From a virus (Duplodnaviria; Heunggongvirae; Uroviricota; Caudoviricetes), in IMG/VR virus record IMGVR_UViG_2563366842_000005: a stretch of 29,444 nt of DNA; one strand, given 5' to 3'. Below the pieces are notes generated by a model. That model made no database searches. It was given only the letters and a program-made list of their open reading frames with translations, and was not told the origin of the DNA. A program made the translations under genes and the position numbers. Shown here piece after piece: positions 7,814 to 9,141 of this stretch. The first letter of the stretch is position 1, and each line of letters starts with the position of its first letter.

Positions 7814-7926
7814 CCGAGCCCTCGCTGTTTCTTTCGATTTGCTGTGTTAAGCTAATATTTTAATATCCATGTTTCTGTTTGCTTGCAGTGTGTTTCTCAC
7901 CACCATCCAAACGTACTGGTTACTAG

Positions 7927-9121
7927 GGAAGGTGCGAACAAGTCCCTGATATGAGATCATGTTTGTCATCTGGAGCCATGGAACAGGGTTCATCATGAGT
8001 CATCAACTTACCTTCGCCGACAGTGAATTCAGCAGTAAGCGCCGTCAGACCAGAAAAGAGATTTTCTTGTCCCGCATGGAGCAGATTCTGCCATGGCAAA
8101 ACATGGTGGAAGTCATCGAGCCGTTTTACCCCAAGGCTGGTAATGGCCGGCGACCTTATCCGCTGGAAACCATGCTACGCATTCACTGCATGCAGCATTG
8201 GTACAACCTGAGCGATGGCGCGATGGAAGATGCTCTGTACGAAATCGCCTCCATGCGTCTGTTTGCCCGGTTATCCCTGGATAGCGCCTTGCCTGACCGC
8301 ACCACCATCATGAATTTCCGCCACCTGCTGGAGCAGCATCAACTGGCCCGCCAATTGTTCAAGACCATCAATCGCTGGCTGGCCGAAGCAGGCGTCATGA
8401 TGACTCAAGGCACCTTGGTCGATGCCACCATCATTGAGGCACCCAGCTCGACCAAGAACAAAGAGCAGCAACGCGATCCGGAGATGCATCAGACCAAGAA
8501 AGGCAATCAGTGGCACTTTGGCATGAAGGCCCACATTGGTGTCGATGCCAAGAGTGGCCTGACCCACAGCCTGGTCACCACCGCGGCCAACGAGCATGAC
8601 CTCAATCAGCTGGGTAATCTGCTGCATGGAGAGGAGCAATTTGTCTCAGCCGATGCCGGCTACCAAGGGGCGCCACAGCGCGAGGAGCTGGCCGAGGTGG
8701 ATGTGGACTGGCTGATCGCCGAGCGCCCCGGCAAGGTAAGAACCTTGAAACAGCATCCACGCAAGAACAAAACGGCCATCAACATCGAATCCATGAAAGC
8801 CAGCATCCGGGCCAAGGTGGAGCACCCATTTCGCATCATCAAGCGACAGTTCGGCTTCGTGAAAGCCAGATACAAGGGGTTGCTGAAAAACGATAACCAA
8901 CTGGCGATGTTATTCACGCTGGCCAACCTGTTTCGGGCGGACCAAATGATACGTCAGTGGGAGAGATCTCACTAAAAACTGGGGATAACGCCTTAAATGG
9001 CGAAGAAACGGTCTAAATAGGCTGATTCAAGGCATTTACGGGAGAAAAAATCGGCTCAAACATGAAGAAATGAAATGACTGAGTCAGCCGAGAAGAATTT
9101 CCCCGCTTATTCGCACCTTCC
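7927..9121 (+). mobile_element. IS5: IS5 insertion sequence (complete, 1195 bp) with 4-bp CTAG target-site duplication
   Basis: Terminal inverted repeats GGAAGGTGCGAACAAG (7927-7942) and CTTATTCGCACCTTCC (9106-9121). CTAG directly flanks both ends (7923-7926 and 9122-9125). Internal transposase ORF matches InsH. Confidence 0.95.
7995..8975 (+). CDS. insH: IS5 transposase InsH
   Basis: 326 aa from ATG 7995 ([40 protein letters not shown]...), the IS5 transposase sequence; the track ORF begins 12 codons upstream. Confidence 0.95.
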
Positions 9122-9141
9122 CTAGCTATGTGATGATGAAG

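What the first reader, a model, noticed from the sequence alone, without database searches (positions are those of the whole stretch)
7923..9125. Intact IS5 with CTAG target duplication inserted between cI and the rex-slot gene
Seen in sequence: a complete 1195-bp IS5 (7927-9121) with perfect terminal inverted repeats and a 4-bp CTAG duplication on both sides sits 20 bp downstream of the cI stop and 113 bp upstream of the rex-slot gene start. The duplication and intact transposase suggest a recent insertion. It separates the cargo gene from pRM read-through, which is how rexAB is expressed in lambda. Established knowledge: IS5 inserted upstream of E. coli genes (bgl, glpFK, fucAO) can activate them. 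The insertion may therefore silence or deregulate the cargo gene.
Basis: partly seen in the sequence, partly recalled or inferred. Interest (0 to 1): 0.55.

Follow-up and report, generated by a model that had tools for sequence, protein, structure and literature searches.

The report
IS5 insertion in prophage immunity operon
A normal, transposition-competent copy of the common E. coli jumping gene IS5 recently landed between the repressor gene and an uncharacterised passenger gene of a lambda-like prophage; the event is real but ordinary, and it most likely dampens the passenger gene.

Summary
Window 7927-9121 is a full-length 1195-bp IS5, flanked by CTAG at 7923-7926 and 9122-9125. It lies 20 nt after the cI stop and 113 nt before the ATG of a 299-aa gene. 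One correction: the 16-bp terminal repeats match 15/16, the canonical IS5 mismatch, so they are not perfect.

The predicted empty site (GGTTACTAGCTATGTGATG) exists at 100% flank identity in 11 phage records. An uninterrupted site (>=99% identity) occurs in 150 of 5426 complete E. coli genomes. The occupied junction was found in no collection searched. Apart from the IS, the window is colinear with phage Lambda_2E9, with 23 mismatches in 28.2 kb. Exact 1195/1195 copies of this IS5 isoform sit at other loci of strain 118UI, each with its own duplication, so the insertion is recent.

Function is inferred. The native 129-nt spacer has no promoter-like or terminator-like site, and a terminator follows the cargo gene, so cI and cargo look like one operon. 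IS5 now separates them. pRM would read the ins5CB strand, antisense to the transposase. Partial polar loss of cargo expression is most likely.

The gene-activation precedents (glpFK, fucAO, flhDC) need the opposite IS5 orientation. This is ordinary, already-known biology.

The parts
7923..7926 (.). Left copy of the 4-bp target-site duplication (CTAG)
   Evidence: The empty-site alignment shows a single CTAG.
7927..9121 (+). IS5, complete 1195-bp element, with transposase on the + strand
   Evidence: 1191/1195 identical to reference IS5 J01735 with no gaps. 100% identical to copies in many E. coli genomes. GC is 51-60% inside the element against 38-46% in the flanks.
7927..7942 (+). Left inverted repeat (IRL), GGAAGGTGCGAACAAG. 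It contains the -35 (GTGCGA, 7932-7937) of the weak ins5A promoter; the -10 (GATCAT) is at 7955-7960.
   Evidence: pair I1. Promoter elements are as defined in PMC11894529 and were located by reading the sequence.
7995..8975 (+). ins5A transposase, 326 aa (a 338-aa reading starts at 7959)
   Evidence: Relative to the reference protein it carries Y266S and R274K. It is identical to WP_000019400.1.
8271..8926 (-). Opposite-strand ORFs at the position of the ins5CB operon: 8660-8926 or 8646-8900, then 8271-8639
   Evidence: Assignment to ins5C and ins5B is by position only, following the description in PMC11677980. The 8271-8639 ORF is identical to the reference. The upstream ORFs carry 1-2 substitutions.
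8945..9121 (+). 3'-terminal 177 bp of IS5 (A-tract bend and IHF site, the 'IB' region), including the right inverted repeat IRR at 9106-9121. It faces the 3' end of cI, not the cargo gene.
   Evidence: No differences from the reference here. The role of IB is taken from PMC2753651.
9122..9125 (.). Right copy of the target-site duplication (CTAG)
9142..9849 (-). cI-type repressor (HTH plus S24 peptidase), 235 aa, intact
   Evidence: 100% identical DNA to Lambda_2E9.
6914..7813 (-). Cargo gene in the rex position: 299-aa predicted membrane-anchored protein of unknown function (phrog_4506)
6892..6907 (-). Intrinsic-terminator-like hairpin plus T-run just after the cargo stop codon; the likely end of the cI-cargo transcript
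7814..7926 (-). Cargo-proximal part of the split intercistronic spacer. With 9126-9141 and one CTAG it forms the 129-nt native spacer.
   Evidence: No promoter-like or terminator-like site. Not conserved with the Pectobacterium or Serratia homologues.
9850..9927 (.). Divergent control region between cI and cro, with a pR-like promoter at 9869-9896 (+) and a perfect 15-bp palindrome at 9898-9912 (candidate operator). It is the presumed source of the pRM transcripts that run into IS5.
   Evidence: pRM itself was not located.

Best explanation
Shown: this is a genuine, recent, lineage-private transposition of a competent IS5 isoform. It landed in one of only 11 CTAG sites of a Lambda_2E9-like lambdoid prophage; the near-identical prophage of strain 118UI is integrated next to icd. 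The site lies in the 129-nt spacer between the repressor gene cI and a downstream same-strand gene of unknown function. No coding sequence is damaged.

Inferred: in the uninterrupted phage, cI and the cargo gene form one transcription unit, as cI-rexAB does in lambda. It would be driven by the repressor promoters and end at the terminator at 6892-6907. The IS stretches the spacer from 129 to 1328 nt. pRM/pRE transcripts now enter IS5 through its right end, reading the ins5CB strand antisense to the transposase gene. They cross about 220-240 nt of untranslated RNA before the ins5C-position ORF and 457 nt (8270 down to 7814) after the ins5B-position ORF. Because IS5 has no useful outward promoter, the most likely net effect is a partial, probably Rho-dependent, polar reduction of cargo-gene expression in the lysogen. 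Immunity (cI) should be unaffected.

A secondary inferred effect is that constant pRM read-in could raise expression of ins5CB, which was reported to stimulate IS5 transposition about twofold.

My confidence is about 0.97 that it is a real, recent IS5 insertion, and about 0.5-0.55 for the polar-reduction consequence.
For: Identity of the element:
- 1191/1195 identical to reference IS5.
- 15/16 terminal repeats and CTAG on both sides.
- Full-length DDE transposase.

Empty site:
- 11 phage records match both flanks at 100% with 1199 bp missing.
- The alignment shows a single CTAG.
- 150 of 5426 complete E. coli genomes have the uninterrupted site.

Private to this source: 0 of 5426 genomes carry the occupied junction, and it is absent from genome, viral and metagenome contigs.

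Recency:
- The window is colinear with Lambda_2E9, with 23 mismatches in 28,249 bp and no other indel.
- The copy is identical to IS5 copies elsewhere.

Competence of this isoform: strain 118UI holds at least two exact copies at different loci, with their own duplications CTAA and TTAG. It also holds the same prophage with the site empty.

Target choice:
- CTAG occurs only 11 times against about 110 expected from composition.
- The flanks are AT-rich.

Operon inference:
- No promoter-like site in the native spacer (at most 3.8, versus shuffles 7.7 +/- 1.95).
- No terminator-like site there either.
- A terminator follows the cargo gene directly.
- In E. coli the cargo 5' end was seen only together with this cI allele.
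- A 74%-identical homologue in Pectobacterium also sits 123 nt downstream of a CI-type repressor on the same strand.

IS5 properties from the literature:
- Its own promoters are almost silent, and ins5CB driven from outside raises transposition about twofold (PMC11677980).
- Its termini lack outward promoter activity, and a rho mutation was inferred to increase read-out from IS5 (PMC5526668).

Rho loading: the transcript entering from the right end is modestly C-over-G rich, with a ratio of 1.2-1.6 over about 270 nt.
Against: There is no expression data of any kind.

In the sense direction, transcription crosses the whole of IS5 with only about 15% loss (PMC11894529). IS5 is therefore not an absolute barrier, and read-through in the antisense direction may also be substantial.

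Only one weak terminator-like hairpin lies on the relevant strand inside IS5 (9089-9077). The C/G bias is mild.

My promoter scoring is a simple position-weight scan. A weak, activator-dependent or non-sigma-70 promoter in 7814-7926 would escape it.

The roughly 105 nt upstream of the cargo gene belong to the cargo module rather than the cI module. That is what one would expect if the gene were a self-contained moron with its own promoter.

The Serratia homologue is not next to a repressor.
Confidence: 0.8

Rival explanations
1. Neutral passenger. The cargo gene is a self-contained moron with its own promoter in the 113 nt that remain attached to it, so the IS5 insertion changes nothing of consequence.
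For: The homology shared with other phages that carry the same cI ends about 8-30 nt to the cargo side of the insertion site. The upstream 105 nt or so therefore travel with the cargo gene, and the gene has its own terminator. The Serratia homologue lies in a different, repressor-free context.
Against: No sigma-70-like promoter is present in the spacer; the best score there is 2.8, far below chance expectation, and the consensus scan finds nothing. The upstream region is not conserved among homologues. No terminator separates cI from the cargo gene. In E. coli the cargo gene is always linked to this cI allele.
Confidence: 0.27
2. Activation. IS5 raises cargo expression by relieving H-NS-type silencing of the AT-rich region (as in bgl), or through a junction promoter made of an IRL -35 (TTCGCA) and a flank -10 (TACGTT), 7938 to 7910 on the minus strand.
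For: IS5 prefers AT-rich, H-NS-bound intergenic DNA, and it activates bgl in either orientation (PMC2753651, PMC11677980). The flanks are 36-46% GC. The junction hybrid scores 6.16, higher than anything in the native spacer. In a chromosomal context, IS5 modestly raised a downstream reporter (PMC5526668).
Against: The orientation is opposite to every orientation-specific case; in fucAO, flhDC and glpFK the ins5A promoter is distal to the activated gene (PMC2753651). No native promoter is detectable downstream of the IS for it to act on. The junction hybrid scores below the chance maximum of 7.7 +/- 1.95 and below pR at 8.2. IS5 termini showed no partial outward promoter in reporter tests (PMC5526668).
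Confidence: 0.1
3. Assembly artefact. A repeat-induced misjoin placed an IS5 copy into the prophage sequence.
For: IS5 is multicopy in related strains (6-8 places per genome), and multicopy repeats are a classic cause of misassembly.
Against: There is an exact 4-bp duplication of a preferred IS5 target, and that target is single-copy in the empty site. Both flanks are colinear and 100% identical to the empty-site phage. A misjoin would not create a target duplication and would normally break colinearity.
Confidence: 0.02

Closest known systems
IS5 reference element (GenBank J01735, from lambda KH100; identical copy in phage P1 mod749::IS5, AF234172)
   Same: Same length of 1195 bp. Same 16-bp imperfect inverted repeats. 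Same 4-bp duplication of a C(T/A)A(G/A) target. Same gene layout, with ins5A on one strand and ORFs at the ins5CB position on the other. 99.67% nucleotide identity without gaps. Like the first IS5 ever described, it sits in the immunity region of a lambdoid phage (PMC11677980).
   Different: Four substitutions, at IS positions 54, 368, 865 and 889, giving Y266S and R274K in the 326-aa Ins5A. This isoform (WP_000019400.1) is itself common and occurs in multiple exact copies in natural E. coli genomes.
Lambda cI-rexA-rexB immunity operon
   Same: A non-essential gene lies downstream of cI on the same strand, between the N side and cI. No intervening promoter-like or terminator-like signal was found, and a terminator follows the last gene.
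   Different: The 299-aa protein has no detectable similarity to RexA or RexB, nor to any Pfam, NCBIfam or PADLOC family. No informative fold match was found. Co-transcription with cI is inferred here, not shown.
IS5-mediated gene activation at glpFK, fucAO and flhDC
   Same: IS5 is inserted at a CTAG/CTAA site in AT-rich DNA roughly 100 nt upstream of a gene.
   Different: In those cases the IS5 3' end faces the activated gene and the ins5A promoter is distal (PMC2753651). At fucAO, transcription starts at a fusion promoter at the left end and exits through the right end (PMC11894529). Here the gene faces the left end and is on the opposite strand, so neither mechanism can apply.
Other IS5-carrying phages and prophages (phage 434 and K-12 DLP12 nmpC::IS5; P1 mod749::IS5)
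   Same: A temperate-phage genome carries an intact IS5 with a target duplication and remains a phage record (OL657227, AF234172).
   Different: Those copies interrupt coding genes (nmpC/lc porin, mod). This one is intercistronic and breaks no ORF.

Membership tests
IS5 (IS5 family, IS5 group) | Length of about 1195 bp and near-identity to the reference IS5 sequence | tested here: met
   1195 bp, 1191/1195 identical to J01735 with no gaps. 100% identical to annotated 'IS5-like element' copies in E. coli genomes.
IS5 (IS5 family, IS5 group) | 16-bp imperfect terminal inverted repeats GGAAGGTGCGAA(C/T)AAG | tested here: met
   Arms at 7927-7942 and 9106-9121 match 15/16 (pair I1).
IS5 (IS5 family, IS5 group) | 4-bp target-site duplication of C(T/A)A(G/A) | tested here: met
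   CTAG lies on both sides and is single in the empty site.
IS5 (IS5 family, IS5 group) | Intact DDE transposase Ins5A | tested here: met
   PF01609 at 5e-35 plus PF05598. NF033581 matched over 1-285 of 285 positions at 365 bits against a cutoff of 140. 326/326 identical to WP_000019400.1.
IS5 (IS5 family, IS5 group) | Transposition competence of this isoform | tested here: met
   This is indirect evidence. Exact 1195/1195 copies lie at two other loci of strain 118UI, each with its own duplication (CTAA, TTAG).
Lambda rex-type gene (co-transcribed with cI from pRM) | Position downstream of cI on the same strand, inside the immunity region | tested here: met
   The order is N (6163-6555, minus), cargo (6914-7813, minus), cI (9142-9849, minus), cro (plus). 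oL was located only tentatively.
Lambda rex-type gene (co-transcribed with cI from pRM) | No independent promoter or terminator between cI and the gene | tested here: inconclusive
   Consensus and position-weight scans find none in the native spacer. Such scans cannot exclude weak or activator-dependent promoters.
Lambda rex-type gene (co-transcribed with cI from pRM) | Homology to RexA or RexB | tested here: not met
   No Pfam, NCBIfam or PADLOC match. The only family hit is phrog_4506, of unknown function.
Lambda rex-type gene (co-transcribed with cI from pRM) | A single transcript spanning cI and the gene in a lysogen | not testable with these tools
   This needs RNA-seq or RT-PCR.
IS5-mediated promoter activation (glpFK, fucAO, flhDC type) | IS5 3' end (bend/IHF region) proximal to the activated promoter, ins5A promoter distal | tested here: not met
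   The cargo gene abuts the left end (IRL, 7927) and cI abuts the right end. The orientation rule is from PMC2753651.
IS5-mediated promoter activation (glpFK, fucAO, flhDC type) | A native or fusion promoter that reads into the target gene | tested here: inconclusive
   No native promoter-like site was found. The junction hybrid TTCGCA-17-TACGTT scores 6.16, below chance expectation.

The most novel reading that the evidence does not exclude
The insertion could place the stimulatory ins5CB operon of IS5 under the constitutive lysogenic promoter pRM. The prophage would then act both as a launch pad that raises IS5 transposition in lysogens and as a vehicle for it, because about 47.9 kb (46,702-bp Lambda_2E9 plus 1199 bp) should still be packageable. 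At the same time the IS could work as a reversible insulator that turns down an uncharacterised membrane protein of the rex slot. It also lengthens the tentative oL-oR distance from about 2.0 to about 3.2 kb, which might alter repressor looping and switch stability.
Probability: 0.1. Interest if true: 0.4.

Novelty: already known. Interest (0 to 1): 0.15.

Why it matters
On its own it matters little. It is one more instance of a very well-studied IS in a prophage, at a site seen in no other public sequence searched.

It has modest practical value in three ways:
- It is a strain-specific marker for this lineage.
- Together with the isolated phage Lambda_2E9 and its relatives, which are identical in the flanks, it offers a natural with/without pair. 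That pair could test whether a rex-slot cargo gene depends on the repressor promoter, and how polar IS5 is in the ins5CB direction. The papers I read gave no direct measurement of the latter.
- It draws attention to an uncharacterised, conserved, predicted membrane-anchored protein family (phrog_4506) that sits where lambda keeps its exclusion genes.

Tried and rejected
1. I searched for the occupied junction in complete E. coli genomes, genome contigs, viral contigs and metagenome contigs. None had it, so the source strain could not be named.

3. I looked for a conserved promoter upstream of cargo homologues. The upstream regions do not align.

4. I looked for operators shared between the cI-cro region and the N-proximal region. 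There were no shared 8-mers. Only a 4-mismatch relative of the 9898-9912 palindrome appears at 6699-6713, so oL is only tentative.

5. I tried to read Rak & von Reutern 1984 and Schnetz & Rak 1992 on ins5C and IS5 enhancer activity. Neither is held.

6. I looked for literature on IS5 polarity in the ins5CB direction. I found no direct measurement. The nearest evidence is indirect (PMC11677980, PMC5526668).

7. I read the 70 nt upstream of the ins5A promoter by eye for a Crp-type activator site that could form a fucAO-like fusion promoter. No convincing TGTGA-N6-TCACA is present. This was not a formal test.

8. A literature search for the Lambda_2E9, Lambda_ev and Jouyvirus phages returned nothing relevant.

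Full report
**1. What is in the sequence**

The stretch 7927-9121 is 1195 bp. It begins GGAAGGTGCGAACAAG and ends with the reverse complement of GGAAGGTGCGAATAAG, so the 16-bp terminal inverted repeats match 15/16. CTAG flanks it on both sides, at 7923-7926 and 9122-9125.

It aligns without gaps to reference IS5 (J01735, carried in phage P1 mod749::IS5) at 1191/1195 positions. The four differences are at IS positions 54, 368, 865 and 889. In the 326-aa transposase they give Y266S and R274K.

The transposase ORF (7995-8975, or 7959-8975 for the longer reading) is open. It carries Pfam DDE_Tnp_1 and DUF772 and covers NCBIfam NF033581 end to end at 365 bits against a cutoff of 140.

GC content is 51-60% inside the element and 38-46% outside it.

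There are 20 nt between the IS end and the cI stop codon (9142-9144), and 113 nt to the ATG (7813) of the 299-aa gene at 6914-7813.

The only error is the word 'perfect' for the inverted repeats. [quoted passage not shown]

**2. It is a true and recent insertion**

Eleven phage records match both flanks at 100%, with exactly 1199 bp missing. They include Lambda_2E9, 1H12 and several Lambda_ev phages.

In complete E. coli genomes, 150 of 5426 carry the uninterrupted site at 99% identity or better. None carries the occupied left junction. The junction is also absent from the species-representative genome contigs, the viral contigs and the metagenome contigs.

Outside the IS, the window is colinear with the 46,702-bp phage Lambda_2E9:
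- window 1-7926 has 6 mismatches;
- window 9122-20501 has 0 mismatches;
- window 20502-29444 has 17 mismatches;
- there is no other indel.

The window is also the same prophage that sits next to icd in uropathogenic strain 118UI.

The IS copy is base-for-base identical to copies in many genomes. Strain 118UI has the prophage with the site empty. It also carries at least two exact 1195/1195 copies elsewhere, each with its own target duplication (CTAA, TTAG). This isoform has therefore transposed recently in such backgrounds.

The target was one of only 11 CTAG sites in 28.2 kb, against about 110 expected from base composition. It lies in AT-rich intergenic DNA, which is the known preference of IS5 (PMC11677980).

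An assembly artefact is very unlikely, because a misjoin does not create a duplication of a single-copy target.

**3. Context**

From left to right the neighbourhood is:
- sieB (5565-6146, plus strand);
- N (6163-6555, minus strand);
- a terminator-like hairpin (6892-6907, minus strand);
- the cargo gene (6914-7813, minus strand);
- IS5;
- cI (9142-9849, minus strand; HTH plus S24 peptidase);
- a divergent control region with a pR-like promoter at 9869-9896;
- cro, cII, O and P.

The cargo gene therefore occupies the place of rexAB in lambda.

Its function is unknown. It matches phrog_4506, an unknown-function family. It has no Pfam, NCBIfam or PADLOC family, and none of the 56 homologue clusters has an informative name. 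A confident AlphaFold model (pLDDT 84.5) shows an N-terminal alpha/beta domain, a long hydrophobic helix around residues 102-123 and a C-terminal beta-rich domain. No informative match came from PDB or BFVD.

**4. Is the cargo gene normally fed by the repressor promoter?**

This is inferred, not shown.
- The native 129-nt spacer has no terminator-like site.
- It has no promoter-like site either. My position-weight scan gives at most 3.8 in the region and 2.8 in the spacer. The best hit in shuffled sequence averages 7.7 +/- 1.95, and pR scores 8.2.
- A good intrinsic terminator follows the cargo gene.
- In E. coli the cargo 5' end was only ever seen joined to this cI allele.
- A 74%-identical homologue in Pectobacterium also sits 123 nt downstream of an unrelated CI-type repressor on the same strand.

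Three points count against this:
- The shared homology with the many Stx and other phages that carry the same cI ends only about 8-30 nt on the cargo side of the insertion site. The upstream 105 nt or so therefore belong to the cargo module.
- That upstream region is not conserved among homologues.
- A Serratia homologue lies in a repressor-free context.

**5. What the IS does there**

The transposase gene is on the plus strand, and cI and the cargo gene are on the minus strand. Transcripts from pRM or pRE therefore enter through the right end. They read the strand that carries the ins5CB-position ORFs (8660-8926 or 8646-8900, then 8271-8639), antisense to ins5A. They would have to leave through the left end to reach the cargo gene.

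Published work bears on this as follows:
- IS5's own promoters are almost silent. An external promoter driving ins5CB raises transposition about twofold (PMC11677980).
- Both IS5 termini lack useful outward promoter activity in reporters. A rho mutation was inferred to increase read-out from IS5 (PMC5526668).
- In the opposite (ins5A) direction, a promoter at the left end transcribes through the whole element into fucAO with only about 15% loss (PMC11894529).

In the window, the entering transcript has about 220-240 untranslated nucleotides with a modest C-over-G bias (ratio 1.2-1.6). A further 457 untranslated nucleotides (8270 down to 7814) follow the ins5B-position ORF before the cargo ATG. 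Only one weak terminator-like hairpin lies on that strand (9089-9077).

My best reading is a partial, probably Rho-dependent, polar reduction of cargo expression, with cI unaffected. I put this at roughly 50-55%.
- The main rival is that the gene has its own undetected promoter and nothing changes (about 27%).
- Activation is the least likely functional outcome (about 10%). In glpFK, fucAO and flhDC the IS5 3' bend/IHF end faces the activated gene and the ins5A promoter is distal (PMC2753651), which is the opposite of the arrangement here.
- The only junction promoter candidate is TTCGCA-17-TACGTT (7938 to 7910 on the minus strand). It scores 6.16, below chance expectation.

**6. Comparison with what is known, and novelty**

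Every defining feature of IS5 that could be tested is met: length, inverted repeats, target duplication, transposase and near-identity to the reference. The element is IS5 itself, in a common natural isoform.

IS5 was first discovered in the immunity region of lambda (PMC11677980). Other phage records also carry it, including P1 mod749::IS5 and 434 nmpC::IS5.

The only new facts are the particular site and that the site is private to this source. That makes it a useful strain marker and a convenient natural with/without pair alongside the isolated empty-site phages. It is not a new kind of element or mechanism.

**7. Verdict**

Novelty is 'already known', and interest is low (0.15).

The most novel reading not excluded is that the prophage, through pRM read-in to ins5CB and its ability to package a 47.9-kb genome, acts as a launch pad and vehicle for IS5 while the IS insulates a rex-slot gene. 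I give that about 10%.

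Noticed in passing
L003 25657-26870 and 28750-29978 (E. coli 118UI prophage); corresponding intact sites in the window at about 14424-14428 and 16233-16237: The same prophage in strain 118UI carries two IS3-family insertions, one splitting rusA and one splitting a ybgA-like gene, and has no IS5 in the cI-cargo spacer. The window has neither IS3 copy. Different lineages of this prophage have therefore collected different IS insertions.
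   Followed up: partly
window 7915-7926 / 9122-9130; L001 4016-4027; L005 and L006 about 3490-3510: In the Stx2a and PhiR12 phages aligned here, which carry the same cI allele, the site reads CCAG instead of CTAG, so the IS5 target is absent from those two. For about 466 E. coli records, homology with this cI module starts only about 8 nt from the site. IS5 therefore sits almost exactly on the mosaic joint between the cI module and the rex-slot module.
   Followed up: partly
window 6914-7813 (minus strand): The 299-aa rex-slot protein belongs to a small uncharacterised family (phrog_4506) found across Enterobacterales and in a Candidatus Accumulibacter MAG. It has a nearly invariant EANNNTIINIGAGE motif just after a hydrophobic helix. 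It has no Pfam or PADLOC family and no informative structural neighbour, although the model is confident. In Pectobacterium it again follows a CI-type repressor.
   Followed up: partly
window 9898-9912, 9874-9888, 9842-9856 and 6699-6713: A perfect 15-bp palindrome, CGTACTGAAAGTACG, lies immediately downstream of the pR-like -10 hexamer (9891-9896). The terminator scan flags it, but it is more likely an operator. Degenerate relatives lie nearby, and one lies between N and the cargo terminator (candidate oL). If so, IS5 lengthens the oL-oR distance from about 2.0 to about 3.2 kb.
   Followed up: partly
whole window, IS removed: CTAG is strongly depleted, with 11 occurrences against about 110 expected from base composition. 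The preferred IS5 target is therefore rare in this prophage.
   Followed up: yes
window 9895-10155 versus 9928-10155; window 6163-6555: Start-codon calls differ between sources. cro is 86 aa from 9895 in the phage record but 75 aa (228 nt) in RefSeq. The N-peptide ORF is 130 aa from a GTG here, but is annotated as a 102-aa 'hypothetical' or 'putative regulatory' protein in the records.
   Followed up: no
window 15359-15883 (minus), 16076-17035 (plus), 19455-19796 (minus); Lambda_2E9 21756-25205 (outside the window): The prophage carries several moron-like passengers: a lipocalin (Blc-like), a YbgA-like gene between Q and the lysis genes, and a bor/iss lipoprotein gene. In the full phage record there is also a sitABCD manganese/iron transporter in the b region.
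   Followed up: no
window 1-1143 (minus strand): The window begins exactly at the end of the 380-aa integrase gene. In strain 118UI that gene lies about 110 bp from icd. The window is therefore the integrase-to-tail-genes part of an integrated prophage.
   Followed up: partly
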